From an uncultured Candidatus Saccharibacteria bacterium (GTDB taxonomy: Bacteria > Patescibacteriota > Saccharimonadia > Saccharimonadales > 2-12-FULL-41-12), in contig CAZSRV010000001.1 in assembly GCA_964609815.1 (NCBI GenBank), positions 12,868 through 59,642 on the forward strand: 46,775 nt of DNA, written 5' to 3'. The notes beneath the pieces are model-generated. The model saw only the letters and a program-made list of their open reading frames with translations. It did no database searches and was not told the DNA's origin. Every line of letters starts with the position of its first letter. The stretch's first letter is position 1. This document shows, piece after piece, positions 80 through 27,788 of the stretch. A program made the translations under genes and the position numbers.

Positions 80-1348
80 TTATTCGTGGCGTAAAGCTTC
101 TATTGGGTCTTGGCGGCTGGCTCTAAAGGCTGGAATCAGGCCGGCTAGTAAAGTAACTGCAGAGATAGCAACTATGATTAATAGGGCTACTTTAGGAGTT
201 ATGCTTAGTAGTGATAGACCTTCTATGCCCTTTAAGAAAGTGTTGCCGGCTACTGAATTGACAATGCCTTGAGCGATATAAGCTAGTCCTAATCCTAGTA
301 TGCCACCCCAAAATCCTAGCAAACAAGCTTCTAGAGTAAATAGTCCAAATATAGTTCGTCTTTTAGCACCGACAGCTCTGAACAATCCAATTTCTCTGGT
401 TCGTTCTAGGACAGCCATGAACAAAGTATTAATCACACCTATAACGCTAGCTGCTATAGCTATACCGCTAAAGGCTGCCAGACCATACTGAGCGCCACTA
501 ACAATACTATTCAGGGTGTTATTTATATCGGCCATACTGCTGGCGCTAAAATTATTATCTGAGAGATTTTGCTTGAATTGGGTGTCTGTTATGTCATCTG
601 TTTTACTGGCAAACACGTAGGACACTTGGGCTTGCCCGGTCGCTGATTGTTTTTCACTAATTCGCTTGGCGTCTGGTTGGCTCATGACTACCTGGCTGTC
701 AATTATTGTTGGTTCATAAACTCCTTTTACCGTGAATTCTTCTTCTATTTCTTGACCCTTGGCATCTTTATAGCCGAGCTTAACTTTTTTACCGACTGCA
801 CCGGCACTATCACTGGCGCCCGTTAAGCTGGCAAATTTACGAGAAATATTTATCTGACCAGCATCCTTGCCAAAGTCTAATGACTTACCAAAGGTAATTC
901 GGTTAGGCAAATTCTCTATCTGAACACTAGCCATTATGGTATATTTTTTGCCATCGGCGCTGGTTATGTAGTCAATAGTTGGCGCATAAGGTATCTGAAC
1001 TGACTTAACGCCGTCAATTGATCTGACTTTATCTATATCAGAGTCCTGAAAAATCAGTTGCGAAAAATCAGTACCATTTGTTGACGCTTTATCTGGGTCG
1101 TATTCTTTGGGGGCGGAATTACCAAAACTGGCTGATACTTCAGCGCCTTGCTTGGTAACTTGATACAAGTTAACATCTTTATAATCACCCAGCTGCGAGG
1201 TTATATAGTTTTTTATGCCTTGACCTAACCCTAGGCTCAAAGCCAGCGTAAAAGTACCAATAGATATGGCCACTAGCGTTAGAAAAGTACGCAGTTTAGC
1301 TCGGCGTAGATTGGAGTTGGCGGTCAGTATGATGTCGGTTATTCTCAT
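80..1348 (-). CDS. ABC transporter permease, FtsX/MacB type
   Basis: 422-aa ORF with an N-terminal TM helix, a roughly 250-aa extracytoplasmic domain and a C-terminal multi-TM FtsX-like module. Its start overlaps the stop of the upstream ATPase gene by 4 nt. Confidence 0.85.
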   Translation of the reverse strand: MRITDIILTANSNLRRAKLRTFLTLVAISIGTFTLALSLGLGQGIKNYITSQLGDYKDVNLYQVTKQGAEVSASFGNSAPKEYDPDKASTNGTDFSQLIFQDSDIDKVRSIDGVKSVQIPYAPTIDYITSADGKKYTIMASVQIENLPNRITFGKSLDFGKDAGQINISRKFASLTGASDSAGAVGKKVKLGYKDAKGQEIEEEFTVKGVYEPTIIDSQVVMSQPDAKRISEKQSATGQAQVSYVFASKTDDITDTQFKQNLSDNNFSASSMADINNTLNSIVSGAQYGLAAFSGIAIAASVIGVINTLFMAVLERTREIGLFRAVGAKRRTIFGLFTLEACLLGFWGGILGLGLAYIAQGIVNSVAGNTFLKGIEGLSLLSITPKVALLIIVAISAVTLLAGLIPAFRASRQDPIEALRHE

Positions 1349-2037
1349 TTCTTGGCTCCTTTCTTAGATTTAGACGCTTCATCGCTGATTATCTGGCCGT
1401 CCCTGACGGTAATTATACGGTCACAGCGTTTTGCCAAATCTTCGTCGTGGGTTACCAGTATCAAGGTAGTCTTATTGGTTTTATTTAGCTCAAATAGCAA
1501 ATCTTCTATAACTTTACCGTTTTCGCTATCTAAGTTACCGGTTGGTTCGTCGGCGATTAATATGTTGGGCTGGTTAACTAGCGCTCGGGCAATCGCCACT
1601 CGTTGTTTTTGGCCACCACTTAAGTCTTTGGATCGATTCTTAGTTTTGTCTTTTAGACCAACAGACTCCAGAACTTCTTTACCGCGTTTTTGTCTGGCTT
1701 TACCCCTGACACCATTTAATTTTAGAGGCAGGATAGTATTTTCTAATACATCTACATTGGGTTGCAAAAAGAACTGCTGAAAGACTATGCCAATATTTCT
1801 GGCTCGCCAGTCGTCAGTGTTCATGTCGCGAATATCTTGGCCGTTATAAATAACCTGACCTTTGGTAGGTTTATCTAGACCAATTAGGATATGAATCAAG
1901 GTACTTTTGCCCGAGCCACTTTTACCGATGATGGCATTAGTGGTGCCTGGTTCAAACTTTAAGTTAATATTCTTTAGGGCGGTAAAGGTGTTAGCTTTTT
2001 TGCCGTAAGTTTTATAAATATTCTTTAATTCCAGCAT
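1345..2037 (-). CDS. ABC transporter ATP-binding protein (MacB/LolD-like)
   Basis: Walker A GKSGSGKST, ABC signature LSGGQKQR, Walker B ILIADEPTGNLD and an H-loop VTHD. Confidence 0.93.
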   Translation of the reverse strand: MLELKNIYKTYGKKANTFTALKNINLKFEPGTTNAIIGKSGSGKSTLIHILIGLDKPTKGQVIYNGQDIRDMNTDDWRARNIGIVFQQFFLQPNVDVLENTILPLKLNGVRGKARQKRGKEVLESVGLKDKTKNRSKDLSGGQKQRVAIARALVNQPNILIADEPTGNLDSENGKVIEDLLFELNKTNKTTLILVTHDEDLAKRCDRIITVRDGQIISDEASKSKKGAKK

Positions 2038-8576: not shown

Positions 8577-8607
8577 AGACTAATAAAGGCTCCTGACACT
8601 TTTAGTG

Positions 8608-8636
8608 TTGACCGATAAACAATTACGAACTAAAAT
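8608..8636 (+). promoter_or_regulatory. Putative promoter of the peptide / AsnB-like pair
   Basis: TTGACC, a 17-nt spacer and TAAAAT, about 36 nt upstream of the AGGAGG Shine-Dalgarno sequence. Confidence 0.4.
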
Positions 8637-8672
8637 TATAATTACAATAATAGTTTGTCAAGGAGGTCTCTA

Positions 8673-8861
8673 ATGTCAATAGAATTATTAGATCTAAAAC
8701 AAGAGCAAATAAGTGAAGATTTTGACCAAAAGTTTGCAGATGCAGTAGAGCTTTTAGATTCAGGCAGTGAAGTTCTAGGTACGAAAGAATTGATAGATCT
8801 AGAAAAATCCCCAGTCGTTAAAGCAGCTGGCGTTAGCGATCAAGGCTATAGATTCAATTAA
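8673..8861 (+). CDS. Small bipartite peptide (62 aa), candidate modified-peptide precursor
   Basis: AGGAGG lies 6 nt upstream of the ATG at 8673. Residues 1-45 contain 13 Asp/Glu, and the C-terminal 17 residues SPVVKAAGVSDQGYRFN are neutral to basic. The stop is 5 nt before the next gene. Confidence 0.55.
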   Translation: MSIELLDLKQEQISEDFDQKFADAVELLDSGSEVLGTKELIDLEKSPVVKAAGVSDQGYRFN

Positions 8862-8866
8862 GATAA

Positions 8867-10399
8867 ATGCGATTAGATGTCGTTATAGAGTTTAATGAAG
8901 AGTCTTCTCGTGTGGTTGACTCATCTAGTGATGAAGATTTTTATTATAAAAATCCTTATGCTAGTATAAAATTGTCAAACCGCAAATTTTATCCTGGCAC
9001 CTTCTGCAATACCAAAAATCAAATAATAACTTTTGGTTACGGCAAAGAGGCAATTAGCCAAGATATATCAGAAGAATATTTGATATGTAGTTACGATCCA
9101 AGGATTAATAAAATTACAGTAAACCGTGATTTTCTTTGTACCTGGCCATTGTTTTATTATATGGATCAAAATTATTTTATATTATCTAGCTGTCTAAAAA
9201 GTCTCACAAGAACTCTAGAAACCAAAAAAGTAGAAGTATCTATAGATAAAACTGCGTTATTTGATTTACTGGTTAGTCCTAATATAGACGAAAGAACCTT
9301 GTTCAAGGATATAAAACTACTAAAATCGGACAGTCAGCTGATCTGGAGTAATGGCAAAATAAACAATAGTGTTCGCACATATTCCATAAATAAGCAAAAA
9401 GATAGCTCTAAGCCTAAAGATTTCAAAAAAGCTATTGAGCAAACAGTAGAAAATTATTTGCAAAGAGTTGACAGTCAGTCGGCAATAATAGCATTTGAGT
9501 GGAGCGGTGGTTTAGATTCATCTTTTGCTCCACTGTGGGTAAACATGACTCACAACATCAGCCCTAAACTAGCTTCTATAAAGTTTTTGGAAGGGTTTGG
9601 GAAAAGCCAATTAGAAAAATATAAGCCTATGCAAAATCGCACAGAGTCAACTCTCGTATCGGTAACTCCCAGCCCAGATACTCATTACCCCTTAGCAAGA
9701 TTTGCAAGTTTTGGAGATTATCAGCCTTTTTATCAATACCAAGAAATTTATACAGAATGCCTTGATGGACTGGCTAATAAACTAGCACAGGATAATGTAA
9801 ATATAATATTTACAGGAATAGGCGGTGATGAGCTGTTTGAAAATAACACCGAACCCGTAGAAGATAGCTTAATCAGAAGTGAATTCCAGTATATTAGTGA
9901 TAAATTGTGGGACAATAAGCCTAGTAGAAGTCAAGAAACAACTTCGCCAGTGGCTGATTCAGCCTTTTTTTCTAATCAATCGCGGAATTCTATCTATATA
10001 TCCAAGGGAATTTGGCCTGTTGCGCCTTTGGCAGACCCTAAGCTTTATAATTTTTGCCAAGAGCTACCAATTCTGGCTCGTACTAATAAAAATATATTGC
10101 GGATCTTGTATGAATCTTACAATTGGCCAAAAGAGATATATGATCCAGTACAAAACGAGCACTTCGGTCGGTTTTTTGATGATTCTATGAAAGTTGGTTA
10201 CAAAAATAGATTTCACAAGATAATAAATGACAACAGTTGGTTGGTCAAAAATAGTTATATACTCTTAAGCGAAGTGAAAGATTTATATAAAAAAGGACAA
10301 TACACGGAGTCATCCGGTACGGATATGTTTACTATCTTCCGTATAATCAGCGCTGAGATTATTATTTCTTCCGTATTAACCCAAACCTCATGCGAATAA
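8867..10399 (+). CDS. Asparagine-synthetase-like ATP-dependent amide-forming enzyme lacking the glutaminase nucleophile
   Basis: PP-loop FEWSGGLDSS and an AsnB-like N-domain segment VNRDFLCTWPLFYY. The protein starts MRLDV with no Cys2. At 510 aa it is similar in length to lasso cyclases, beta-lactam synthetase and CarA. Confidence 0.8.
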   Translation: MRLDVVIEFNEESSRVVDSSSDEDFYYKNPYASIKLSNRKFYPGTFCNTKNQIITFGYGKEAISQDISEEYLICSYDPRINKITVNRDFLCTWPLFYYMDQNYFILSSCLKSLTRTLETKKVEVSIDKTALFDLLVSPNIDERTLFKDIKLLKSDSQLIWSNGKINNSVRTYSINKQKDSSKPKDFKKAIEQTVENYLQRVDSQSAIIAFEWSGGLDSSFAPLWVNMTHNISPKLASIKFLEGFGKSQLEKYKPMQNRTESTLVSVTPSPDTHYPLARFASFGDYQPFYQYQEIYTECLDGLANKLAQDNVNIIFTGIGGDELFENNTEPVEDSLIRSEFQYISDKLWDNKPSRSQETTSPVADSAFFSNQSRNSIYISKGIWPVAPLADPKLYNFCQELPILARTNKNILRILYESYNWPKEIYDPVQNEHFGRFFDDSMKVGYKNRFHKIINDNSWLVKNSYILLSEVKDLYKKGQYTESSGTDMFTIFRIISAEIIISSVLTQTSCE

Positions 10400-10441
10400 T
10401 TCTTGTAAGTATTTCGGGCTGAGATGTATAGAACATAGCTA

Positions 10442-10471
10442 TTGCTTAATTGTTGCCATAAACGGTATAAT
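10442..10471 (+). promoter_or_regulatory. Putative promoter of the ATPase operon
   Basis: TTGCTT, an 18-nt spacer and TATAAT, about 30 nt upstream of the 273-aa gene. No terminator is seen between that gene and the b-like gene. Confidence 0.4.
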
Positions 10472-10502
10472 AATCATAAGATTATAAGAAGTTAACTTTA
10501 TT

Positions 10503-11352: not shown

Positions 11353-11973
11353 ATGGATTCATGGCTGCAGACTGGTTTGGTGGTAATCTCACTTCTGGGT
11401 GCTACAGTGGCTTTTATTTGGCTGGCTACCCGTATGGGGGCCAAAAATCAGTCAGATAATCAAAATAATGATTTTGTGCGCATGGCTGAAAATGACATTG
11501 AGCACATTTTTAACGATGAGTTCCGCGAGGAGTTGCGTAATCGCGGCCGACTGCATTTTGAGAAAATCATTGGCGAAAACGCTATGTTCCTTCAGCAAGA
11601 TTTGCGTTTAACTACATCGCAAGTCAATGACTATATGAAATCCGAGATTACCAAGACCCTGCAAGAAGCTTTTTCTAAATATCAAGAATCAATCAATGAT
11701 GCTGAGCAGCTGGCTCTAGAAAGTATCCAAAAGACTCAAGAAACAGTTGAGAAACAGCGCGAGGTAATGAGCCGGCAACTAGAGGACGAAATTGCCAAAG
11801 AAAAGGCTCGTCTAACAGAGAGGTTTTCTAATCGTATGGCCGATATAGTTAACCATTATGTATTGGCGGCTATTGGCAACCAAATTAGCTTGGAAGATCA
11901 GCTGGAATTTATTATGGGTGAGCTAGAGCGTAATAAGCAGGCAATTGTTGAGGACATAAATCAGGGCGCCTAA
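11353..11973 (+). CDS. atpF: ATP synthase subunit b-like stator protein
   Basis: A single N-terminal TM helix followed by a long charged coiled-coil. It lies immediately upstream of the delta-like gene. Confidence 0.55.
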   Translation: MDSWLQTGLVVISLLGATVAFIWLATRMGAKNQSDNQNNDFVRMAENDIEHIFNDEFREELRNRGRLHFEKIIGENAMFLQQDLRLTTSQVNDYMKSEITKTLQEAFSKYQESINDAEQLALESIQKTQETVEKQREVMSRQLEDEIAKEKARLTERFSNRMADIVNHYVLAAIGNQISLEDQLEFIMGELERNKQAIVEDINQGA

Positions 11974-11989
11974 AGGATAATAAATAGAA

Positions 11990-12661
11990 ATGACCGAGCA
12001 CAAAAACCAAGATCAAGAAGTATTCAAACTACCACATAGGTTAGTGAGTTCTGTTGACCTAGCTAGAGTTACTCGCGAGCTAAAATTATTGGATGACTGG
12101 TTTAATCAAAACGAAATTCGTGACGCCGGTAAGCAAGCTAATCCCCCCAAGACCAGCACCACTTTAGAAGAATTGGCTAGTAGTAATGGCGTGTCGGTTT
12201 TGGATAAAAGTCAAAGATCACAGTTGATTGGTTTGTTGGATAATTTTATTGTTAATGCTCCCAAAATTCATATTGCTTTTGCCGTAGAGCCATCGGTGCG
12301 ATTTCTGAATGAAATGATTATTTGGCTCAGAAGCCATATTAATCCGGTTATATTGCTAGAAGTGGGTTTGCAGCCGGCACTAGCGGCTGGCTGCAGTGTA
12401 CGTACTACCAATAAATTATTTGATATGAGTTTACGTAACCATTTTCGGGATTCTAGACATTTACTTTATCAATCAATCAAAGAGTTTGGCCAGGATAAGT
12501 CTCCTGGTGGAGTCAGTGAAAGTCCTCAGGCTCAAACACCTATACCGACTAAAGAAGCTCCAAGCGAACCTGCTCAAACTGCTGCAGTACCTATGACTAG
12601 TCAAGTGCCAGCACCAACAGCAGCCCAGCCAGTAACTACAGAGGTAGTCGATGCAAAATAA
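11990..12661 (+). CDS. atpH: ATP synthase subunit delta (OSCP)-like with a Pro/Thr/Ala/Gln-rich C-terminal tail
   Basis: The C-terminal domain pattern [11 protein letters not shown]...[32 protein letters not shown] parallels the delta motif (v.l....d.sl.gG..v..gd...D.S.r..l). It sits between the b-like and alpha genes. Confidence 0.6.
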
Positions 12662-14071
12662 TCACTTTGACAAGTTAGTTGGTAGTGGCGCGCCAGTTGG
12701 CGAGGTTGTCTCGGTTGACAAGTTTTTGGTAAACGTCAAAGGCCTGCACCCAGTAGCGGTTCATGCCCTAATAATGTTTGAAGATGGTAGTAAGGGCTTT
12801 GTTCAGGAAGTGACGCCACAATCAGTGGTTATATTGCATTTGGGCACTAAGACTTTGACTATTGGTATGATCGCAGTTGTTCAGCACCAGGAACTGGTTT
12901 GCAAAGTAGGTAAAGACTTTATCGGACGGGTTATATCGGTCAACGGTGAGCCTTTGGACGGCAAAGGTTCTATTGCTCCAGACGGAACTCGTAAAGTGTT
13001 CAGTACAGCCCCGCCACTTTATGAAAGAAAACTGCTAGAAGACCAGCTAGAATCAGGCGTTACAGCGGTAGATGCTATCTTTCCATTGGTGCGGGGCCAG
13101 CGTATTGCTCTACTGGGCGACGGTAAATCGGGCAAAAGTACACTGGCTACTCAGCTAACGATCAACCAAAAAAACACTGATCAAGTAGTGGTCTATTGTT
13201 TGATCGCCAAACGCAGGAGTGACGTTGATGATTTGCTTAGCAAACTCCAAGAAACAGACTCATTAAAATCAGCGATCGTGATGGTGTCTACAATGTTTGA
13301 ATCACTAGTTATGAGCTATTTGGCGCCATACGTAGCCTGTGCCATGGCCGAATATTTCTGGCAAGAATGCGACAATGACACCATTATTATTTACGACGAC
13401 CTAACATCTCACGCCCATGCTCTGAGGGAGATGGCCTTACTTATGGGAACTAGTCCTGGACGTGATAGTTATCCGGGTGATATGTTCTATGCGCATTCGT
13501 CCTTGCTAGAGCGCGCTGGTCGTTTGGATCGTAATAGCAAATGTCTGACATCTATCCCACTAGTGCATGCTGCTAATGGCGATATAACAGCTTATTTGCC
13601 AACCAATATTATGTCTATTACCGACGGGCAGTGGATTTTAGACATGGATTTGTTTAGGTCTGGGTTACGTCCGGCGCTTAATAGTGGACTGAGTGTTACT
13701 CGTATCGGAGGAGTCGGGCATAATAAACGTCAAAAGGCTCAGGCAGCAACTACCCTAAAGACGCTAGCAGCTTACCGCGAGGCCGAAGAATTTTCTCACT
13801 TTGGATCAGAACTAGCGCTAGAAGCCAAAGTGGCCCTAGAAAGGGGTAAAAACATCTTCAAAATCCTCAGCCAAGGGCCATCTGACACTTATTCGTTTAT
13901 GGAACAACAGTTAATGCTGGACATCGTCCTTAACACCGATCCAGAGATAAAGTTTGATGTAGACTCTCTAAAGGCTAATGTAAAGGAAATAGCTGCCAAA
14001 GTTACCAAAGATGAAGAATTTGACAAAGCTCGCGATGAATTGCTAGCCAAATGCAAAGTGGAGCTCAAAAA

Positions 14072-14075
<4 letters not shown>
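12651..14075 (+). CDS. atpA: ATP synthase subunit alpha (divergent, 474 aa)
   Basis: P-loop [43 protein letters not shown] and [14 protein letters not shown]. Confidence 0.9.
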
Positions 14076-16239
<2,164 letters not shown>

Positions 16240-16241
16240 CC

Positions 16242-16607
16242 ATGGCTGATGATGACAAAAAACCACCTGCCGAAGAACCAAAAGCTCCGCAGGCTGAAGA
16301 GCCAGCCAAAAAACTAACCAAAGAAGAAAAAAAGGCTCAGGCAGAGGAGTTCAAAAAAACTTCTACTGTTCGCCTAAAGGTTTATTCACCGTTTAGGGTA
16401 TATTATGATGATGATGCAGAGAGTGTCTCGGCCGAAAACGCCACCGGGCCGTTTGATATTTTGGCTCAGCACCGCAATTTTATCACACTACTTGTGCCTT
16501 GTGAGATTGATGTTAAATCATCCAAAACCGGCAATAAAAAGATCAAAATCAACCGTGGTGTGATGCATGTTAGACAAAACAAAGTCACCGTCTTTTTAGA
16601 CGTCTAG
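16242..16607 (+). CDS. atpC: ATP synthase subunit epsilon-like (beta-sandwich only, Lys/Glu/Pro/Ala-rich N-extension)
   Basis: It is the last gene of the operon. Residues from about 40 to 121 (VRLKVYSPF...GPFDILAQHRNFITLL...GVMHVRQNKVTVFLD) follow the epsilon N-domain pattern. There is no C-terminal helical hairpin. Confidence 0.65.
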   Translation: MADDDKKPPAEEPKAPQAEEPAKKLTKEEKKAQAEEFKKTSTVRLKVYSPFRVYYDDDAESVSAENATGPFDILAQHRNFITLLVPCEIDVKSSKTGNKKIKINRGVMHVRQNKVTVFLDV

Positions 16608-16829: not shown

Positions 16830-17852
16830 TTAGTCAATCACTATGTAATCAAACGCGAAGCTTTGGCCGGCTGGGGCAGAGTTGCTGGTGCATAGGCTAA
16901 AGCCTGTACCAGAACGGTTGACGTAATAATTTATACCGCCAGCTGCTGCACCAATAGGCGCTATAGCAATGTGTGGCGAGTTAAATCTCTGAGTAAAGTT
17001 GATGTTTATAAAACAGCCAGGAGTAGTGCCACCACCGGTATTGATACTAATAGTCCCGGCTGTGTCGGTACCGCTAACAGAAGCCGTACCACCGCCACCT
17101 AGAGCGTTGCCAGAAGATCCGCCCGGTGTGCCGCCACCAGCGTCAATATGACGAGTTATTTGTAGGTCTTGGTTCACCACCAATGTTTCTATATTTAATC
17201 TAGATGAAGAGATAGTGCCGCCAACTGTTAAGTTGCCACTAATGCCTACGTTGTTTTGGACATTTAGCTGTCCGTCAATAGTGGTATTGCCGGCAATCTG
17301 CAAGCTGTTGGCAGTTATTTGGTCAAAAATACTCATACCGGCCACGCTAATACCCGGTAAATTAAGCGGTCCGCCAATTTTTAACTGACCAGCTACCTCC
17401 AAGCTGTCACGCACCAGTACTTTACCAGCAAAGACAGCGTTAGATTCTACGCTTAGGATTTGTTTGGGGTCGCCTACCTTTACGTCCGTTTGACGCAGTT
17501 TTTCTAGGTCTTCTTCACTCAGCGGCGTGGTACTGATGTTGGCTTGGTTTTTCTCGTCAGCTTTTTTGCTTTGTTGGTAGGCGATAAAAGTTACGACAAC
17601 TGCTACTACTATTATGAAAATAAAAATCAGTAGATAAATATTGAGCTTACCGGCTAGCCCTGGGGCGTTGGAACGCTTTTTCTTCTTAGCTTTTTTGTCG
17701 TCTTCTGGGGTTGGTTGTTCGGGGTTTTCGCTCTGAGTGGTGGTATCAATTACGCTACTATCACCAGAAGAAGCCTGAGAGTCCAAGCTTTCTAATTCCG
17801 TTGCTGATTCTAAACTATCTTCTGGTTTTTGTTGATTAGCTTCCATATCCAC
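16830..17852 (-). CDS. Membrane-anchored protein with a Gly/Asn/Thr-rich beta-helix-like repeat domain
   Basis: Acidic N-terminus, Lys-rich stretch and one TM helix (IYLLIFIFIIVVAVVVTFIAY). These are followed by repeats such as LEVAGQLKIGG, LQIAGNTTIDGQLNV and ISGNLTVGGTI. Confidence 0.7.
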   Translation of the reverse strand: MDMEANQQKPEDSLESATELESLDSQASSGDSSVIDTTTQSENPEQPTPEDDKKAKKKKRSNAPGLAGKLNIYLLIFIFIIVVAVVVTFIAYQQSKKADEKNQANISTTPLSEEDLEKLRQTDVKVGDPKQILSVESNAVFAGKVLVRDSLEVAGQLKIGGPLNLPGISVAGMSIFDQITANSLQIAGNTTIDGQLNVQNNVGISGNLTVGGTISSSRLNIETLVVNQDLQITRHIDAGGGTPGGSSGNALGGGGTASVSGTDTAGTISINTGGGTTPGCFININFTQRFNSPHIAIAPIGAAAGGINYYVNRSGTGFSLCTSNSAPAGQSFAFDYIVID

Positions 17853-18046
17853 CTAAACGACCACTTAGTCTTTATCTTAAGCATAAGTATAAATGTTATA
17901 GCCTGCCCGGTCAATGATCTAAGGCTCAGAATGAGGAGCATAGCTAGCGGGTATTGTTTTTTTTGATTTACACTGACATAATTATTAGCATAAGGATAAC
18001 TATATCCATAACCTGGATAAAACCAAGAATATACGAAAAGTGAGCT

Positions 18047-18745
18047 ATGAAATATAACAAGAACCTCAACTATAGGGATAGAAGGCGGTTACTTATTAAG
18101 TTGCGCATAATCTACTTTATAGTGGCTTTATTACTTGTAGCTGGAGCAATCATACTTTATTGGGTATATATTCGTGATGATGCGGTCAATGAAAAGACTA
18201 CTTCAGAGCAAACTACTAGTGTGGTAGCGCCTACTATTACTACTTTTAAAACACCATTTTTTCAGTTTCAGGCAGCTACATCATGGGTAGAAGCACCCAA
18301 AGAATCTACGGTTAATAAATTTGTTTACAGAAGCTATAACAAAACGTTGCTAGAGCACCAACTGACGGTTTATGTTAATCAAATACCAGATCCGATGGAG
18401 TTCAAAGCTACTAGAGTTCTGCCAGTAGATGTGGTGACCGATCCAGGCAGTAAGTCTTCGCGGTTTGTACTGTCAGATGTTAGCGAGCCATGTACGCCAG
18501 CACTGAAAAAAGACGTTATTCCGCCAGATGTCCAGGTTGTGAATTTTAAGGGAGTTACTTTTACTTGTTATGGCATGATCAACCAGTATAATGTGCTAAT
18601 CGGCAAACTAGGTGGCGAGACCAATATTACTATGACTCGGACTGATGGTAGCTCGGCTGTCTATACTATTCAGTACAAAGACCTAAGGGCTGTAAATAAT
18701 CCGACAGAAATCAATCAGATTGCTAACACATTCCAGAGCTTGTAG
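18047..18745 (+). CDS. Hypothetical N-terminally anchored extracytoplasmic protein
   Basis: 232-aa ORF with a basic N-terminus and one TM helix. No motif recognised. Confidence 0.65.
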   Translation: MKYNKNLNYRDRRRLLIKLRIIYFIVALLLVAGAIILYWVYIRDDAVNEKTTSEQTTSVVAPTITTFKTPFFQFQAATSWVEAPKESTVNKFVYRSYNKTLLEHQLTVYVNQIPDPMEFKATRVLPVDVVTDPGSKSSRFVLSDVSEPCTPALKKDVIPPDVQVVNFKGVTFTCYGMINQYNVLIGKLGGETNITMTRTDGSSAVYTIQYKDLRAVNNPTEINQIANTFQSL

Positions 18746-18795
18746 GGTAGTTATAAGCGGCCAGACGCTTATGCTATAATTTGTGTTAGACATAA

Positions 18796-19578
18796 ATGAA
18801 GACTATAAAAAAATCACTATTGTATGGATTAGTAGTTAGTTTGGGGTTCTTGGCAGCGCCAGTTTATGTATTGGCGCAGGCTTCATCCAATAACTATCGG
18901 CTAGAAGAATCATTCTTTGGTACTGGCGGTGAGGTAGACGCTAGCTCTAACAACTATCGGTCGCGCCAATCAGCCGGAGCTTTGGGTGTCGGTGATGTAT
19001 CCAGTACCAATTATGACGCTAGCCTTGGTAATATTACCCAAGACCAGCCGTTTTTAGAAATGGTGGTTACCGGTGGCCCTATAGATTTTGGTGATCTATC
19101 GTCTTCGTCTACATCTTATGGTTCACCAGTTGGCGGTGCTTGTAACTGCTCGTTTTATGTTCGCACTTATTATTCGTCGTCTTATGTGGTGCTCAGCGCC
19201 AATAACCAGCCGGCTACTAGCGAGGGCGGTGCGTACCTAGCGCCCAAGACAGTGCTGGGCCCACCATCTGGTAGCCAGAGCACCGAAGAGTTTGGCTATA
19301 ACCTAGTAGCCAACACATCACCAGGCAACTTTGGCGCTAACCCTACTAACCAGCCAGACAACAGCTTTGCTGACGGTGTAATAGCCAGTGGTTATGACAC
19401 ACCCAATGAGTTTAAGTTTGGTGCTGGCGAGACGCTAGTGCAGTCACCAGGGACTATAGGCAACCCAGCAATTGGTCAGACAGACTACACTATTAGCTAT
19501 ATAGCCAAAAAGAAGCCGACCACGCCAGCCGGTATGTATGTGTTCAACCACGACCTAGTGGCTGTAGCTACATATTAA
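18796..19578 (+). CDS. Secreted surface-locus protein, paralogue family member (260 aa)
   Basis: Sec signal peptide ending VLA/QA and three S-S-x-N-Y repeats (SSNNYR, SSNNYR, SSTNYD). The C-terminus is PAGMYVFNHDLVAVATY. Confidence 0.75.
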   Translation: MKTIKKSLLYGLVVSLGFLAAPVYVLAQASSNNYRLEESFFGTGGEVDASSNNYRSRQSAGALGVGDVSSTNYDASLGNITQDQPFLEMVVTGGPIDFGDLSSSSTSYGSPVGGACNCSFYVRTYYSSSYVVLSANNQPATSEGGAYLAPKTVLGPPSGSQSTEEFGYNLVANTSPGNFGANPTNQPDNSFADGVIASGYDTPNEFKFGAGETLVQSPGTIGNPAIGQTDYTISYIAKKKPTTPAGMYVFNHDLVAVATY

Positions 19579-19726
19579 GCTGAGTTTTGGCTGATTGTGT
19601 ATAGGTTTGTGTACATTTTGTGTAAAATCTGTGGATTTCTGTGGATAAAGTACTTGCATCAGTGTATAAGCTTATGCTATAAACAGAGGTATGTTATCAA
19701 ACATAAAAAATATTTAAAAAAATATA

Positions 19727-20999
19727 AAAGGAGAAAACAAATGCAACGTATGTTTTGTGTAGATGCTATGCGCTACAAGCTAAGACAATTGTCTACTTTA
19801 GCAATAACATCTACTTTAGTACTATCGGCTCTAGCCCCAGTCCTATTCTTTGGACAAGCTAGTGCTGCTCAGATAACTGAGCGAAAAATAACAATGAGCA
19901 CGTCACAAAGGGCGGCCACAGGAGTAAGTTATGCGGTATCGTTTAAGCCAGCGACATCCATAACAGCTACGGGTATGGTCGTAGAATTCTGTGCTAACAG
20001 TCCGCTTGTCGGTTCTAGCTGTACGGCACCAGCTAACGGAAACACTCTAGAAGGTTTTGTGGGAAATACTGGTTCAGTCAGTGGATCTTGGGTGATTGAC
20101 GGAACTTCTGATGCTAATACATTAATCCTAACCCACTCTGGTGCCACATTGACTGCTGGCAGTACATTTACTGTAACGGTATCTGGTGTAACTAACCCTA
20201 CCTATGACAGTGTGCAACCAGCTACTTTCTACGCCCGTATACTGACCTATACAGGTAGCCCAACTGGTTACACCTCAACATCACCCGGCTCTTACACTGA
20301 CCAAGGTGGTATAGCTCTAACAACTAACAACCAGCTACAAGTTGATGCTCGTGTCCAGGAAGAATTGGAATTCTGTGTTGGTACTGTAGATAACACAGTT
20401 ATATCTAACGCTACAACACCGGCTAACTGTTCAGCTGCTCCGTTCTCTAGTGCTACGCCTACAGTAGACATAGGTACTATTAGTTCTACAACTACATCAA
20501 TATCTCCAATAGCTGTATCTTCTGGCGGTAATAACATGAACGGTGCTGCCATGATCCGTACTAACGCCGTTAACGGTGCTACCATTACTTACTTCGCCGA
20601 GCAAGAAACTGGCTCTGGTCGTCTAAAGGTAGCTGGTGCTACATGTACTGGCTCATCAGGTTTTGATGCTGGATCTGGCGTAACTGATCAATGTTTTGGT
20701 AGTAGTTCTACTCAGGGTGACTTCTCTACAGCAGGTGAGAAGTTTGGTATGACATCTTCTGACGTTTTTAGGCCAACTGGTTCTACAACTACCAACCTAA
20801 CACGTGATGCTTCTTATGACGGTGACGGAACTGCTGCAAGTGGGTTTGCTTGGCAACAAGATGGCACTACGACCACTTTAGCTACATCTAGCACTGTTAT
20901 GGACTATGAGATGCTACTACTAAGGTTTGCAGCCCGAACATCTGCTACTACACCTACTGGTAGTTACTCTGTAACTAGTACATACGTAGCTACATCAAC
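19727..20999 (+). repeat. Copy 1 of a 1273-bp direct repeat
   Basis: It appears identical to 21872-23144. Spot checks at the start, middle and end matched, and the sense ORF and two antisense ORFs in different frames translate identically. Identity begins 14 nt before the ATG (AAAGGAGAAAACAA) and ends 5 nt before the stop codon. Confidence 0.9.
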
Positions 21000-21006
21000 C
21001 TTCTAA
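19741..21006 (+). CDS. Secreted surface-locus protein, copy 1 (421 aa, ends ...ATSTF)
   Basis: The ATG at 19741 has AGGAGA 6 nt upstream and matches the start of copy 2. It has a signal peptide (GQASA/AQ), conserved Cys pairs (EFCANSPLVGSSC, EFCVGTVDN...NC) and the C-terminus TGSYSVTSTYVATSTF. Confidence 0.85.
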   Translation: MQRMFCVDAMRYKLRQLSTLAITSTLVLSALAPVLFFGQASAAQITERKITMSTSQRAATGVSYAVSFKPATSITATGMVVEFCANSPLVGSSCTAPANGNTLEGFVGNTGSVSGSWVIDGTSDANTLILTHSGATLTAGSTFTVTVSGVTNPTYDSVQPATFYARILTYTGSPTGYTSTSPGSYTDQGGIALTTNNQLQVDARVQEELEFCVGTVDNTVISNATTPANCSAAPFSSATPTVDIGTISSTTTSISPIAVSSGGNNMNGAAMIRTNAVNGATITYFAEQETGSGRLKVAGATCTGSSGFDAGSGVTDQCFGSSSTQGDFSTAGEKFGMTSSDVFRPTGSTTTNLTRDASYDGDGTAASGFAWQQDGTTTTLATSSTVMDYEMLLLRFAARTSATTPTGSYSVTSTYVATSTF

Positions 21007-21032
21007 ATATCAGAATATAGATAAAAGGTTAC

Positions 21033-21062
21033 AAAAGAGTCCGGCTCACCCCGGACTCTTTA
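21033..21062 (+). terminator. Hairpin terminator after copy 1; left copy of a 30-bp direct repeat
   Basis: AAAAGAGTCCGGCTCACCCCGGACTCTTTA has a 9-bp stem AGAGTCCGG/CCGGACTCT. It is identical to 21657-21686. Confidence 0.7.
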
Positions 21063-21202
21063 GTTTATGTGCGCTGACCCATTGACATAAGCGGTTATTC
21101 TGTGTTATATTAACAGGCAGACAAGCGCCAAACGCCTGTCACTAGGAACTTCGTCGTAGTTTATACACTACACCCAGCGAGGTTCTTTTTTATTGGATTT
21201 AT

Positions 21203-21613
21203 CTATCTTGGTGGAAATACCGACATAAAGTATTTGTTGCCAGTTTTGTTATCCTGCTTAATTTGCACGTAAAATAGTTCGTCGTTTGTCGTAATACCTG
21301 CAAATCGATAGACTATTTCGTTTTTACCGTTTGGGTTGCGTTTATCTATTGGTGTCATGCGAGAGTTTTGTATAAGATCAAGTGCTACCGCATATAGCTT
21401 TAGGCGTCGTTTTCTATCTGCCCGAGGCTTTTGGTTAAGATGGCTCCAGAATACATCAATGAACACCTTATCTTTGTCAAAATAGGCGCTCTTGATATAC
21501 GGTGTTCGCTTGGTGCTGTGCGCATGTTTATTGTGTAATGCACGAGCAACTCGCTCAACGTCAATATATGCACGCCCAGGTATCTTTTGTAGTTTTGACT
21601 TATAGACTTTCAT
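21203..21613 (-). CDS. Hypothetical basic protein (136 aa) inside the inter-repeat cassette
   Basis: It is the only ORF between the two 30-bp repeats. It is Lys/Arg-rich and no family was recognised. Confidence 0.6.
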   Translation of the reverse strand: MKVYKSKLQKIPGRAYIDVERVARALHNKHAHSTKRTPYIKSAYFDKDKVFIDVFWSHLNQKPRADRKRRLKLYAVALDLIQNSRMTPIDKRNPNGKNEIVYRFAGITTNDELFYVQIKQDNKTGNKYFMSVFPPR

Positions 21614-21656
21614 TATGTACTATTTTAGCACGAAATCAAGCTACTTAACTCTGATA

Positions 21657-21686
21657 AAAAGAGTCCGGCTCACCCCGGACTCTTTA
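21657..21686 (+). repeat. Right copy of the 30-bp hairpin-containing direct repeat
   Basis: Identical to 21033-21062, with a spacing of 624 bp between copies. Confidence 0.85.
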
Positions 21687-21871
21687 ATTATTACATATCA
21701 TAAGTCTAATGCTGGTAAGGTGTATACTCTCTATAGAACTGCAGTTTTATCCACTACAGGGGTAGCAATTATAAACAGTTTATCCACAGATACAGGTGGC
21801 GGCTATTGCAATATACAAACCACTTATGGTATAAATTAGCTACAACATACAAAAATAAAAAACAATTTAGT

Positions 21872-23144
21872 AAAGGAGAAAACAAATGCAACGTATGTTT
21901 TGTGTAGATGCTATGCGCTACAAGCTAAGACAATTGTCTACTTTAGCAATAACATCTACTTTAGTACTATCGGCTCTAGCCCCAGTCCTATTCTTTGGAC
22001 AAGCTAGTGCTGCTCAGATAACTGAGCGAAAAATAACAATGAGCACGTCACAAAGGGCGGCCACAGGAGTAAGTTATGCGGTATCGTTTAAGCCAGCGAC
22101 ATCCATAACAGCTACGGGTATGGTCGTAGAATTCTGTGCTAACAGTCCGCTTGTCGGTTCTAGCTGTACGGCACCAGCTAACGGAAACACTCTAGAAGGT
22201 TTTGTGGGAAATACTGGTTCAGTCAGTGGATCTTGGGTGATTGACGGAACTTCTGATGCTAATACATTAATCCTAACCCACTCTGGTGCCACATTGACTG
22301 CTGGCAGTACATTTACTGTAACGGTATCTGGTGTAACTAACCCTACCTATGACAGTGTGCAACCAGCTACTTTCTACGCCCGTATACTGACCTATACAGG
22401 TAGCCCAACTGGTTACACCTCAACATCACCCGGCTCTTACACTGACCAAGGTGGTATAGCTCTAACAACTAACAACCAGCTACAAGTTGATGCTCGTGTC
22501 CAGGAAGAATTGGAATTCTGTGTTGGTACTGTAGATAACACAGTTATATCTAACGCTACAACACCGGCTAACTGTTCAGCTGCTCCGTTCTCTAGTGCTA
22601 CGCCTACAGTAGACATAGGTACTATTAGTTCTACAACTACATCAATATCTCCAATAGCTGTATCTTCTGGCGGTAATAACATGAACGGTGCTGCCATGAT
22701 CCGTACTAACGCCGTTAACGGTGCTACCATTACTTACTTCGCCGAGCAAGAAACTGGCTCTGGTCGTCTAAAGGTAGCTGGTGCTACATGTACTGGCTCA
22801 TCAGGTTTTGATGCTGGATCTGGCGTAACTGATCAATGTTTTGGTAGTAGTTCTACTCAGGGTGACTTCTCTACAGCAGGTGAGAAGTTTGGTATGACAT
22901 CTTCTGACGTTTTTAGGCCAACTGGTTCTACAACTACCAACCTAACACGTGATGCTTCTTATGACGGTGACGGAACTGCTGCAAGTGGGTTTGCTTGGCA
23001 ACAAGATGGCACTACGACCACTTTAGCTACATCTAGCACTGTTATGGACTATGAGATGCTACTACTAAGGTTTGCAGCCCGAACATCTGCTACTACACCT
23101 ACTGGTAGTTACTCTGTAACTAGTACATACGTAGCTACATCAAC
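21872..23144 (+). repeat. Copy 2 of the 1273-bp direct repeat
   Basis: See copy 1. The offset between copies is 2145 bp. Confidence 0.9.
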
Positions 23145-23151
23145 ATATTAA
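21886..23151 (+). CDS. Secreted surface-locus protein, copy 2 (421 aa, ends ...ATSTY)
   Basis: The protein is identical to copy 1 except for the last residue (Y instead of F). Confidence 0.85.
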   Translation: MQRMFCVDAMRYKLRQLSTLAITSTLVLSALAPVLFFGQASAAQITERKITMSTSQRAATGVSYAVSFKPATSITATGMVVEFCANSPLVGSSCTAPANGNTLEGFVGNTGSVSGSWVIDGTSDANTLILTHSGATLTAGSTFTVTVSGVTNPTYDSVQPATFYARILTYTGSPTGYTSTSPGSYTDQGGIALTTNNQLQVDARVQEELEFCVGTVDNTVISNATTPANCSAAPFSSATPTVDIGTISSTTTSISPIAVSSGGNNMNGAAMIRTNAVNGATITYFAEQETGSGRLKVAGATCTGSSGFDAGSGVTDQCFGSSSTQGDFSTAGEKFGMTSSDVFRPTGSTTTNLTRDASYDGDGTAASGFAWQQDGTTTTLATSSTVMDYEMLLLRFAARTSATTPTGSYSVTSTYVATSTY

Positions 23152-23186
23152 TCCTTTGCTAAATATAGATTTAGGCAACAATTATC

Positions 23187-23216
23187 AAACAGGTCCCATA
23201 TCTGGACCTGTTTTGA
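23187..23216 (+). terminator. Rho-independent terminator after copy 2
   Basis: AAACAGGTCC-CATATCT-GGACCTGTTT forms a 10-bp stem and runs into TTTTG. Confidence 0.7.
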
Positions 23217-23360
23217 TTTCGCAATTTCCGCACCGCCCAAGCCTGTCCACCGGCGGAGCCGGTAGGTCCGCTTGGGCCTCTTAGGCCTTAGCGATTATTT
23301 TTCCTGTGAGTGCTCCTTCACAGCGTACCATATGTACACTTCTGTCCGCTCCCCAGGAAA
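23217..23360. other. GC-rich, helix-rich intergenic island (possible small RNA or leader)
   Basis: GCCCAAGC (23235-23242) pairs with GCTTGGGC (23270-23277), enclosing ACCGGC-GGA-GCCGGT. GGCC-TCTTA-GGCC follows. TTTCCTG (23299-23305) pairs with CAGGAAA (23354-23360). Confidence 0.3.
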
Positions 23361-23361
23361 T

Positions 23362-23393
23362 AACAACCACTATGGCACTAATTGCAAGAGTTG
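23362..23393 (+). repeat. 32-nt conserved motif upstream of the 345-aa gene
   Basis: AACAACCACTATGGCACTAATTGCAAGAGTTG matches 24499-24530 at 29 of 32 positions. It lies 60 nt before the start codon. Confidence 0.7.
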
Positions 23394-23452
23394 TGTTAGT
23401 TTAAGCATAGACATTTTGGCTGGTCAGAACATATAATAATATGGGATAGACT

Positions 23453-24490: not shown

Positions 24491-24498
24491 TTAAACAG

Positions 24499-24530
24499 AA
24501 CAACCACTATGGTACTAATTGTAAGGGTTG
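24499..24530 (+). repeat. Second copy of the 32-nt motif, upstream of the 327-aa gene
   Basis: AACAACCACTATGGTACTAATTGTAAGGGTTG lies 90 nt before the GTG start. Confidence 0.7.
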
Positions 24531-24619
24531 CGATATATACTTAGTAAAAATAGTATTTACAAAAGCTAAAATAATGCTTATAGTTACTGCTAGATATTCA
24601 AACAAATTGGAGGGATAGA

Positions 24620-25603: not shown

Positions 25604-25627
25604 ATTAAGTAAAATATAGTATAGGGG

Positions 25628-25676: not shown

Positions 25677-25715
25677 ATAACGCTTATGCTATGATAGTAT
25701 TAAACAGAAGTTAAT

Positions 25716-27776: not shown

Positions 27777-27788
27777 TATAATATACTT

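What the first reader, a model, noticed from the sequence alone, without database searches (positions are those of the whole stretch)
8608..10399. Two-gene unit: acidic 62-aa peptide translationally coupled to a glutaminase-less asparagine-synthetase-like enzyme (non-canonical RiPP candidate)
What the sequence shows:
- A separate promoter (TTGACC-17-TAAAAT) and a strong AGGAGG precede a 62-aa ORF.
- The first 45 residues of the peptide are highly acidic (13 Asp/Glu). The last 17 residues are SPVVKAAGVSDQGYRFN.
- Five nucleotides after its stop begins a 510-aa protein. It has the PP-loop SGGLDSS and an AsnB-type N-domain, but starts MRLDV, so it lacks the Cys2 glutaminase nucleophile.

Established knowledge: AsnB homologues without the glutaminase cysteine catalyse ATP-dependent intramolecular amide formation. 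Examples are lasso cyclases (McjC family), beta-lactam synthetase and carbapenam synthetase.

The pair therefore looks like precursor plus cyclase, but it is not a canonical lasso system:
- no B protease or RRE gene is nearby
- there is no Thr at position -2 of a plausible leader cleavage site
- no G/A/S/C-to-D/E ring of 7-9 residues can be drawn

One speculative reading is a side-chain Lys50-to-Asp56 isopeptide (K-A-A-G-V-S-D). That would not require leader removal.
Basis: partly seen in the sequence, partly recalled or inferred. Interest (0 to 1): 0.65.

Follow-up and report, generated by a model that had tools for sequence, protein, structure and literature searches.

The report
Peptide plus asparagine-synthetase-like cyclase pair
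A small acidic peptide gene and an asparagine-synthetase-like enzyme gene form a conserved, uncharacterised two-gene unit, found from Saccharibacteria to Proteobacteria and Actinobacteria, that most likely makes a ring-closed modified peptide by a route no described system uses.

Summary
A 62-aa acidic ORF (8673-8861) sits 5 nt upstream of a 510-aa AsnB-fold enzyme (8867-10399). The enzyme has an SGGLDSS PP-loop and no Cys2.

- All 20 close-homologue loci examined carry a homologous 48-85 aa ORF abutting the enzyme gene.
- A remote sister clade of enzymes (hhalign E 1.5e-50) occurs in Xanthomonadales, Rhizobiales, Burkholderiales, Actinobacteria and a Flavobacteriaceae MAG. It also carries upstream peptides.
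- Leaders differ between clades, but the C-terminal core nearly always keeps Lys-x5-Asp: 19 of 22 close-clade peptides and 21 of 22 intact remote-clade loci. The residues in between vary.

No lasso B protease, RRE or conserved transporter accompanies the pair. No curated family model reaches its cut-off, and no paper describing the family was found.

Best reading, inferred and not shown: the enzyme binds the helical leader, adenylates Asp56 and closes an isopeptide bond with the Lys50 side chain. That gives a 26-atom ring without leader removal. One clade with a selected Arg in place of Lys, and one peptide with Gln in place of Asp, argue for caution.

It is an uncharacterised RiPP-like system and a new variant of asparagine-synthetase-family peptide cyclisation. 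Co-expression and mass spectrometry would test it directly.

The parts
8608..8636 (+). Sigma-70-like promoter candidate TTGACC-17-TAAAAT
   Evidence: 10 of 12 matches. This is weak on its own because the region is AT-rich (15 sites found against 7.9 expected).
8661..8666 (+). Shine-Dalgarno AGGAGG, 6 nt before the ATG of the peptide gene
   Evidence: Read directly from the sequence.
8673..8861 (+). 62-aa precursor-like peptide gene (stop codon included)
   Evidence: Homologous ORFs lie upstream of every close enzyme homologue (alignment A2). Gene callers also recorded the peptide family, 15 cluster representatives (P0024-P0038).
8673..8807 (+). Acidic leader-like part (residues 1-45), with a conserved amphipathic helix motif. 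The window has KFADAVELL where the family consensus is RFxxIVxxI.
   Evidence: Alignment A2. AlphaFold2 of the peptide alone gives a helix over residues 2-45, with pLDDT about 81-83 for residues 11-30.
8808..8858 (+). Core-like part SPVVKAAGVSDQGYRFN. Lys50 is at 8820-8822 and Asp56 at 8838-8840. Family motif: P-x-x-K-x-x-G-x-x-D-Q-G-[YWF]-R.
   Evidence: The peptide model predicts this part as coil with low confidence.
8867..10399 (+). 510-aa asparagine-synthetase-fold enzyme without the glutaminase nucleophile
9503..9523 (+). PP-loop SGGLDSS (residues 213-219), the ATP pyrophosphatase signature
   Evidence: S213, G215, D217 and S218 are invariant in A1. One search shows SGGxDS in most family members.
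9815..9832 (+). GIGGDE (residues 317-322), invariant G317, G319, G320, D321 and E322. It corresponds to the GEGSDE Mg-ATP motif of AsnB; that correspondence is from memory of the family.
   Evidence: Alignments A1 and A4.

Best explanation
This is a self-sufficient two-gene peptide-modification unit of the RiPP type. The 62-aa product is the substrate of the enzyme encoded 5 nt downstream.

Proposed mechanism:
1. The helical acidic leader (residues 1-45) docks directly on the enzyme, with no separate recognition protein.
2. The PP-loop domain uses ATP to adenylate the side-chain carboxylate of Asp56 in the unstructured core.
3. The epsilon-amine of Lys50 attacks the acyl-adenylate. This gives a Lys50-Asp56 isopeptide and a 7-residue, 26-atom macrolactam (-18 Da) without prior leader removal.

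Shown here:
- the gene pair and its conservation;
- the AsnB fold with an intact ATP site and no glutaminase cysteine;
- the leader/core architecture of the peptide;
- the near-invariant Lys-x5-Asp spacing;
- the absence of lasso B/RRE genes.

Inferred:
- that the peptide is the substrate;
- that Asp56 is the activated group;
- that Lys50 is the nucleophile.

The fate of the leader, any export and the biological role are unknown.
For: Pairing:
- All 20 distinct close-homologue loci examined have a 48-85 aa ORF ending between 1 nt of overlap and 26 nt before the enzyme start.
- In one of these (L169) the gene caller had missed the ORF.
- Genes on either side of the pair differ between loci. In the window they are housekeeping genes.

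Breadth:
- 316 50%-identity representatives score E < 1e-30 against the enzyme profile.
- A sister clade at 21-31% identity, hhalign probability 100% and E 1.5e-50 over 431 columns, occurs in Dyella, Luteibacter, Pinirhizobacter, Luteimonas, Cupriavidus, Meso- and Bradyrhizobium, Streptomyces, Longimycelium and a Flavobacteriaceae MAG. It also has upstream peptides.

Core motif:
- K-x5-D lies 6-14 residues from the C-terminus in 19 of 22 close-clade peptides.
- In the remote clade all 19 peptides tabulated have it, as do L020 and L109. That is 21 of 22 loci with an intact upstream region; L018 lacks it.
- The Gly moves from position +3 to +5 and all other ring positions vary. Examples: KAAGVSD, KPSQGFD, KMPGGGD, KINADGD, KVRLPGD.
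- Fixed spacing with a variable filling is what a ring closure between the two ends predicts.

Enzyme:
- It has an AsnB-type two-domain fold.
- The PP-loop and GGDE motifs are invariant.
- Cys2 is absent across the family, so a glutamine-derived nitrogen donor is unlikely and an intramolecular amine is plausible.

Peptide: helix followed by a disordered tail, the leader/core layout.

Precedents from papers:
- AS-family lasso cyclases make Asp/Glu side-chain macrolactams.
- Triculamin needs only a precursor and a cyclase, with a precursor helix predicted to bind the cyclase directly (doi 10.64898/2026.07.03.736388).

Logic: with no leader protease encoded, a side-chain amine is the only amine the core can offer.
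Against: - No chemistry was tested.
- One clade (L006/L089/L092 and L172) has Arg instead of Lys (PREPGGGDNWRL). Its last 14 codons (EAVPREPGGGDNWRLP in L006) show 6 synonymous changes against 1 non-synonymous, so the Arg is selected. An Arg cannot give an ordinary isopeptide. Lys/Arg could therefore be a recognition or cleavage residue rather than the nucleophile.
- One divergent member (L010) aligns Gln at the Asp position.
- Remote-clade peptides were picked by eye from upstream ORF lists, which risks selection bias. Homology within sub-clades and the later recovery of L020 and L109 mitigate this.
- A leader protease or exporter could be encoded elsewhere in these genomes.
Confidence: 0.45

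Rival explanations
1. Head-to-side-chain cyclisation after proteolysis (lasso-like or branched-cyclic). A protease encoded elsewhere cuts the leader just before or just after the conserved Lys/Arg. The enzyme then joins the new alpha-amine to Asp56, giving a ring of 7 or 6 residues.
For: - The enzyme's weak curated-model hits include lasso cyclases: NF033535 at 1.6e-10 and NF033561 at about 1e-9 for the sister clade.
- A Lys/Arg position fits a trypsin-like cleavage site and would accommodate the Arg clade.
- Lasso cyclases normally use an alpha-amine (established knowledge).
Against: - No B1/B2 gene or any other protease is conserved next to the pair in any locus or in the 46.8-kb window.
- The Transglut_core3 gene near L006 is absent from the sister locus L172.
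- Lys outnumbers Arg by about 40 to 2 lineages, which is not expected for a mere basic cleavage site.
- There is no Thr at -2.
- A 7-residue Asp ring (22 atoms) or a 6-residue ring is smaller than any known threaded lasso ring (my arithmetic and recollection).
Confidence: 0.15
2. The enzyme activates Asp56, but the outcome is not a Lys link. Possible outcomes are attack by the next backbone amide (aspartimide, then isoAsp), amidation with free ammonia, or ligation of an external small-molecule amine. In this reading Lys/Arg at -6 only positions the core in the active site.
For: - AS-family enzymes acting on peptides show varied outcomes: C-terminal amidation (TsrC, ScdTA), nitrile formation (PesC) and hydrazide formation (FzmA) (PMC13060819, PMC13622209).
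- Beta-lactam synthetase uses an internal amide nitrogen.
- The Arg clade is compatible with a purely electrostatic role for this position.
Against: - It does not explain why the spacing to Lys is fixed at exactly six residues across phyla while the position of Gly shifts.
- Asp-to-Asn amidation would be pointless for a gene-encoded residue.
- No gene that would supply an amine co-substrate is conserved nearby.
- The residue after Asp varies (Q, I, S, G, N, D, T, A, E), which is untypical for aspartimide-prone sites.
Confidence: 0.2
3. Intermolecular ligation. The small acidic protein is a tag or carrier, analogous to Pup or LysW. Its Asp56 is adenylated and joined to a lysine of other proteins, to Lys50 of another copy, or to a metabolite that is then processed.
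For: - Its size (about 60 aa), acidity and helix-plus-disordered-tail layout resemble Pup and LysW (my recollection of those families).
- The enzyme chemistry (carboxylate adenylation followed by amine attack) would allow it.
Against: - Pup and LysW are handled by glutamine-synthetase-like and ATP-grasp ligases and use the C-terminal residue. Here the Asp is internal.
- No proteasome, depupylase or downstream pathway genes are conserved.
- The pair behaves as a mobile cassette with a low-GC signature, which is not typical of a core protein-tagging system.
Confidence: 0.07
4. The small protein is not a substrate but a regulatory, chaperone or inhibitor partner of an AS-like enzyme that acts on an unidentified small molecule.
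For: - Nothing directly links the peptide to the active site.
- Translational coupling only shows co-expression.
Against: - The most conserved part of the peptide is a short unstructured C-terminal motif holding a carboxylate and an amine. That is the hallmark of a modified core, not of a binding partner.
- Leaders diverge between clades while the core chemistry persists.
Confidence: 0.08

Closest known systems
Lasso peptide cyclases (McjC family; C proteins of lasso clusters)
   Same: - Asparagine-synthetase fold with an inactive N-terminal domain lacking Cys2.
- ATP-dependent activation of an Asp/Glu side chain of a ribosomal peptide.
- A short ring near one end of the core, followed by a tail with bulky residues.
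- The proposed ring (26 atoms) equals the Gly1-Glu8 ring of microcin J25 by my atom count.
   Different: - No B1 RRE and no B2 leader protease.
- No Thr at -2 and no Gly/Ala/Ser/Cys at the ring start.
- The conserved partner of Asp is a Lys side chain, not a new N-terminus.
- It scores 40 bits against a cut-off of 525 on the NCBIfam lasso cyclase model.
Triculamin-type non-canonical lasso systems (TriA/TriC)
   Same: - A minimal system without B proteins.
- A helix in the precursor is predicted to bind the cyclase directly (doi 10.64898/2026.07.03.736388).
   Different: - The triculamin core is at the N-terminus, with a free alpha-amine and a C-terminal follower. Here the helix is N-terminal and the core C-terminal.
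- TriC lacks the N-terminal domain, which is present here.
- Triculamin clusters also carry a transporter and an acetyltransferase.
Graspetides (microviridins and other omega-ester/omega-amide peptides)
   Same: - Side-chain-to-side-chain Lys-to-Asp/Glu macrolactams made on a leader-bearing precursor.
- Leader removal is not needed before cyclisation.
   Different: - Graspetide rings are made by ATP-grasp ligases through acyl-phosphates.
- Here the enzyme is a PP-loop asparagine-synthetase homologue that would act through an acyl-adenylate.
Beta-lactam synthetase and carbapenam synthetase
   Same: - Glutaminase-dead AsnB homologues that form an intramolecular amide through an acyl-adenylate.
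- They are among the best structural matches.
   Different: - They act on small molecules, not on a gene-encoded peptide.
- The residue at the Tyr348 position of beta-lactam synthetase is Ile318 here; this alignment of GIGGDE with TGYGSD is from memory and was not tested.
Peptide C-terminus-modifying AS-like enzymes (TsrC, ScdTA, PesC, FzmA)
   Same: AS-like enzymes that act on ribosomal precursor peptides (PMC13060819, PMC13622209).
   Different: - They act on the C-terminal carboxylate with an external nitrogen donor; PesC is reported to use glutamine (PMC13060819), and whether the others keep an active glutaminase domain was not checked.
- Here the conserved carboxylate is internal and the glutaminase nucleophile is missing.

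Membership tests
Canonical lasso peptide system | AS-family cyclase lacking the glutaminase cysteine | tested here: met
   The enzyme starts MRLDV. It has the AsnB fold. Cys2 is absent across the family.
Canonical lasso peptide system | Leader peptidase B2 (Transglut_core3, PF13471) and RRE B1 (PqqD-like) in the cluster | tested here: not met
   None among the window ORFs scanned with Pfam (a few ORFs, e.g. 44573-45247 and 46341-46754, were not scanned). None is conserved in 12 other annotated loci. The single PF13471 gene, 4 kb from the pair in L006, is absent from L172.
Canonical lasso peptide system | Precursor with Thr at -2, a small residue at core position 1 and Asp/Glu at position 7-9 | tested here: not met
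   No such register can be drawn in SPVVKAAGVSDQGYRFN or in the family consensus.
Canonical lasso peptide system | Enzyme reaches the curated lasso cyclase model score | tested here: not met
   NF033535 scores 40.2 bits against a cut-off of 525. For the sister clade, NF033561 scores at most 37.7 against 300.
Glutamine-dependent asparagine synthetase (AsnB) | N-terminal Cys2 nucleophile and equivalog-level similarity | tested here: not met
   There is no Cys2. TIGR01536 scores 51.3 bits against a cut-off of 267; NF006949 scores 19.5 against 499.
PP-loop ATP pyrophosphatase / AsnB synthetase-domain superfamily | SGGxDS PP-loop within an AsnB-type C-terminal domain | tested here: met
   SGGLDSS at residues 213-219. 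Pfam Asn_synthase scores 28.4 bits against a cut-off of 21. Foldseek matches 7ylz, 1ct9, 1q15 and 1mbz.
Triculamin-like non-canonical lasso system | N-terminal core with C-terminal follower, and a cyclase lacking the N-terminal domain | tested here: not met
   The core is C-terminal and the helix N-terminal. The N-terminal beta-sandwich domain is present and confidently modelled.
Graspetides | ATP-grasp ligase as the cyclising enzyme | tested here: not met
   No ATP-grasp gene is in the unit or its conserved surroundings. The only partner is the AS-fold enzyme.
RiPP (general definition) | Gene-encoded precursor with a recognition (leader) part and a core, next to a modifying enzyme | tested here: met
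   Conserved pairing and a helix-plus-core layout.
RiPP (general definition) | Demonstrated post-translational modification of the core | not testable with these tools
   This needs expression and mass spectrometry.

The most novel reading that the evidence does not exclude
An undescribed RiPP class, widespread from Saccharibacteria to Proteobacteria and Actinobacteria. In it an asparagine-synthetase-family enzyme alone, with no RRE and no protease, reads a leader helix and makes a side-chain-to-side-chain Lys(i)-Asp(i+6) macrolactam. The resulting ring has 26 atoms, the same as the microcin J25 ring. The short aromatic and basic tail (QGYRFN) could in principle be held in or through it, giving a 'side-chain lasso' that keeps its leader during cyclisation.
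Probability: 0.4. Interest if true: 0.8.

Novelty: new variant of a known kind. Interest (0 to 1): 0.68.

Why it matters
Asparagine-synthetase-family enzymes are known in ribosomal peptide biosynthesis for lasso ring closure on a new N-terminus and for C-terminal amidation, nitrile or hydrazide formation.

A recent survey of PF00733 left about 300 RiPP-linked members uncharacterised (PMC13060819). That survey relied on co-occurring RiPP elements, so it would probably miss a bare peptide-plus-enzyme pair like this one.

If the Lys-Asp reading is right, three things follow:
- It adds a new ring-forming chemistry for this enzyme family: the graspetide type of cross-link made by an unrelated fold.
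- It defines a minimal two-gene cyclisation system attractive for peptide engineering.
- It shows that reduced-genome Saccharibacteria keep and exchange a peptide natural-product cassette.

The test is simple: express 1.8 kb in E. coli and look for -18 Da.

Tried and rejected
- Sequence search of the enzyme and of its family profile against PDB chains gave only TsnB9 at 2e-7. Fold comparison was needed to place it.
No complex model exists.
- PADLOC defence models gave no hit for the enzyme, the peptide or a sister-clade enzyme. A defence-system reading was dropped.
- NCBIfam and Pfam have no model for any of the peptides.
- The Transglut_core3 gene near L006 was considered as a hidden leader protease. 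It was rejected because the sister locus L172 lacks it.
- The MacB/FtsX-ABC pair at window 80-2037 was considered as an exporter. It was rejected as part of the unit because no such pair is called in the other loci's gene tables.
- Cluster look-ups gave no source names or accessions.
- Seven literature searches found no description of this family. The library lacks most subscription papers, so this is not proof of absence.
Full report
**1. What is in the window.**
- TTGACC-17-TAAAAT lies at 8608-8636. AGGAGG is at 8661-8666.
- A 62-aa ORF runs from ATG 8673 to TAA 8861. A 510-aa ORF starts 5 nt later at ATG 8867 and ends at 10399.
- The peptide is MSIELLDLKQEQISEDFDQKFADAVELLDSGSEVLGTKELIDLEKSPVVKAAGVSDQGYRFN. 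It has 13 acidic residues in the first 45.
- The promoter scan recovers the hexamer pair at 10 of 12. It also shows that such matches are frequent in this AT-rich stretch: 15 found against 7.9 expected. I give the promoter little weight.
- The pair sits in a GC trough of 31-38%, against 40-53% on both sides.
- Its neighbours are housekeeping genes. Upstream lie a TerC/DUF475 membrane protein, MetRS, TatD and a class-V aminotransferase. Downstream lie a 273-aa membrane protein and F-type ATPase subunits.

**2. The enzyme.**
- Pfam gives Asn_synthase over residues 212-328 (E 1.6e-6) and a sub-threshold GATase_7 match over residues 61-114.
- NCBIfam hits are all far below their cut-offs: asparagine synthase TIGR01536 at 51 bits against 267, and lasso cyclase NF033535 at 40 bits against 525.
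- An AlphaFold2 model built on 22 family sequences is confident (pLDDT 89.4, pTM 0.90).
- Foldseek aligns the model over both domains with TsnB9 (7ylz, 2e-16), E. coli AsnB (1ct9, 1e-14), carbapenam synthetase (1q15) and beta-lactam synthetase (1mbz).
- In the family alignment S213, G215, D217 and S218 of the PP-loop SGGLDSS are invariant, as are G317, G319, G320, D321 and E322 of GIGGDE.
- The family begins MFL, MFI, MAF and similar. Among the roughly 150 family sequences checked (the 50%-identity representatives plus the first-search hits), one begins MC.
- So the ATP-dependent carboxylate-activating half looks intact and the glutamine-hydrolysing nucleophile is missing as a family trait. 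A mis-set start codon is excluded.

**3. The pairing is conserved.**
- The first protein search found only 23 relatives. An exhaustive profile search found 316 50%-identity representatives at E < 1e-30.
- Named genomes among the close relatives are Candidatus Saccharimonadales MAGs.
- I obtained DNA for 20 distinct close-homologue loci. Every one has a 48-85 aa ORF on the same strand. It ends between a 1-nt overlap and 26 nt before the enzyme start.
- In L169 the gene caller had missed the ORF, but it is there.
- The peptides align (A2). They share an N-terminal MxExL, an amphipathic helix motif D-A-R-F-x-x-I-V-x-x-I and a C-terminal core P-x-x-K-[PA]-x-G-x-x-D-Q-G-[YWF]-R-x-[DN].
- A profile search with the peptides found 15 cluster representatives with no annotation.
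- Genes flanking the pair differ from locus to locus. They include FolD, a racemase and a Mur ligase; response regulators; an MFS transporter; a cutinase; IMPDH; and serine recombinases. The unit is therefore the two genes.

**4. A wider clade with the same core logic.**
- Scans of species genomes and metagenomes also returned enzymes at 21-31% identity. They come from Dyella, Luteibacter, Pinirhizobacter, Luteimonas, Cupriavidus, Mesorhizobium, Bradyrhizobium, Streptomyces, Longimycelium and a Flavobacteriaceae MAG.
- Profile-profile comparison of the two enzyme sets gives probability 100% and E 1.5e-50 over 431 columns.
- These enzymes also have small upstream ORFs. Their leaders are unrelated to the Saccharimonadales ones, for example MDQLNVVMHEE...NPFGVQ in Xanthomonadales and [DE]ELFxG in actinobacteria.
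- Their C-terminal parts again contain Lys-x5-Asp. Examples are APKINADGDIG, APKTIDPTDVG, DKMPGGGDNNGDHCSK, LLPKVRLPGDSATLMYYL, SPKAPGTADQGFRHDQ and GRKPNGTSDQGYRED.
- In a tabulation, K-x5-D lies 6-14 residues from the C-terminus in 19 of 22 close-clade peptides and in all 19 remote-clade peptides listed.
- Two further remote loci, first missed by my ORF filter, also have it. L018 does not and may belong to another family. L015 is disrupted, and L019 and L098 are at contig ends.
- The Gly inside the segment shifts from +3 to +5 and every other position varies, yet the Lys-to-Asp distance does not change.
- The remote-clade peptides were chosen by eye from candidate lists, so some bias is possible. 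Homology within sub-clades argues that they are real.

**5. What it most likely does.**
Established chemistry of this fold is adenylation of a carboxylate followed by attack of a nitrogen nucleophile. Members without the glutaminase cysteine use an intramolecular nitrogen, as in beta-lactam synthetase, carbapenam synthetase and lasso cyclases.
- The peptide alone is predicted as a helix over residues 2-45 followed by a low-confidence coil for the last 17 residues. This is the layout of a leader plus core.
- The only invariant functional groups in the core are one carboxylate (Asp56) and one amine (Lys50) at fixed spacing.
- No leader protease, RRE or other partner is conserved.
- The simplest mechanism that uses all of this has three steps. 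The leader helix docks on the enzyme, Asp56 is adenylated, and the Lys50 epsilon-amine closes a macrolactam.
- By my atom count the ring has 26 members, the same as the Gly1-Glu8 ring of microcin J25. This is arithmetic, not evidence of threading.
- Direct helix-to-cyclase recognition without B proteins has a precedent in the triculamin system (doi 10.64898/2026.07.03.736388).
- Lys-to-Asp/Glu side-chain lactams on leader-bearing precursors have a precedent in graspetides, made there by an unrelated ATP-grasp fold.

**6. Caveats and rivals.**
- One clade (L006, L089 and L092, and L172) has Arg where the others have Lys. Between L006 and L172 the last 14 codons differ by 6 synonymous changes and 1 non-synonymous change. 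The leader differs by 12 synonymous and 14 non-synonymous changes. The Arg core is therefore maintained by selection.
- This is hard to reconcile with a universal Lys nucleophile. It keeps alive the readings in which the basic residue is a cleavage or recognition site.
- One divergent member (L010) aligns Gln at the Asp position.
- I rate the Lys-Asp macrolactam at about 0.45. The rivals are:
  - cyclisation onto a new N-terminus after cleavage by an unlinked protease, 0.15;
  - other fates of an activated Asp56 (aspartimide, amidation, external amine), 0.2;
  - intermolecular tagging, 0.07;
  - a non-substrate partner protein, 0.08.
- The broader statement, that the peptide is the enzyme's substrate and is modified in the K-x5-D segment, I would put near 0.8.

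**7. Comparison with known systems.**
- It works like a lasso cyclase in fold and presumed acyl-adenylate chemistry. It fails the membership tests for a lasso system. It has no B1 or B2 and no Thr at -2. No N-terminal ring register can be drawn, and the model scores are far below cut-off.
- It is not an AsnB, because it lacks Cys2.
- It is not triculamin-like, because the core is at the opposite end and the N-domain is present.
- It is not a graspetide system, because there is no ATP-grasp enzyme.
- The most recent survey I could read states that of about 3,800 PF00733 members linked to RiPP elements, about 3,500 are lasso-related. TsrC and ScdTA amidate C-termini, and about 300 are uncharacterised (PMC13060819). 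PesC (nitrile) and FzmA (hydrazide) are the newest functions (PMC13060819, PMC13622209).
- I found no paper describing a peptide-plus-AS-like pair with a Lys-x5-Asp core. The library is incomplete.

**8. Verdict.**
The system is an uncharacterised, phylogenetically broad, minimal RiPP-like cassette. I class it as a new variant of a known kind (AS-family peptide cyclisation) rather than categorically new. The mechanism is inferred, and a short co-expression and mass-spectrometry experiment would decide it.

Noticed in passing
window 8600-10500: GC content falls to 31-38% across the two-gene unit, against 40-53% in both flanks. This suggests a horizontally acquired cassette inserted between the class-V aminotransferase gene and a membrane-protein gene. 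The same arrangement recurs in contigs from other samples (L173, L174).
   Followed up: partly
L005 7819-9252; L007 195-1661; L015 5200-5700: Serine recombinase (Resolvase) genes lie next to the pair in two Saccharimonadales-type loci. The Cupriavidus homologue (L015) is truncated, with transposase-like ORF fragments upstream. This fits mobility and occasional decay of the cassette.
   Followed up: no
L006 5776-5997 and L172 5892-6113: One sub-clade of peptides has Arg in place of the otherwise conserved Lys (core PREPGGGDNWRL). The last 14 codons (EAVPREPGGGDNWRLP in L006) show 6 synonymous changes and 1 non-synonymous change between two lineages, against 12 and 14 in the leader. No explanation so far accounts for an Arg at the presumed nucleophile position.
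   Followed up: partly
L010 1949-2206: The most divergent Saccharimonadales member has KKDGYAQGGW, which aligns Gln at the Asp position. Its enzyme has SCGVDTS and GYGGDE in place of the consensus motifs. It may have a degenerate or altered function.
   Followed up: no
window 80-2037 (- strand): A MacB/FtsX-type permease and an ABC ATPase lie 6.6 kb upstream of the pair. No MacB/FtsX-ABC pair is called in the other loci's gene tables, so they are probably unrelated to it.
   Followed up: partly
window 11353-16607: F-type ATPase alpha, gamma, beta and epsilon genes are preceded by two ORFs with no Pfam match (11353-11973 and 11990-12661). These may be divergent b/delta-like subunits.
   Followed up: no
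window 16830-26612: A run of nine sizeable ORFs has no significant Pfam family, apart from one weak WxL-interacting-protein-like match at 24620-25603. A Fic/DOC protein follows at 27729-28676.
   Followed up: no
L006 5151-5555, 9194-9937, 11559-11984: The surroundings of the Arg-clade pair in L006 include weak CdiA_C-like and CdiI_2-like hits and a Transglut_core3 gene. None is present around the sister locus L172.
   Followed up: partly
L001 6264-6632, L003 6524-7341, L168 1282-3230: Response-regulator or histidine-kinase genes lie directly beside the pair in three related loci. This could be shared ancestry of those genomes or a hint of a signalling role for the peptide.
   Followed up: no
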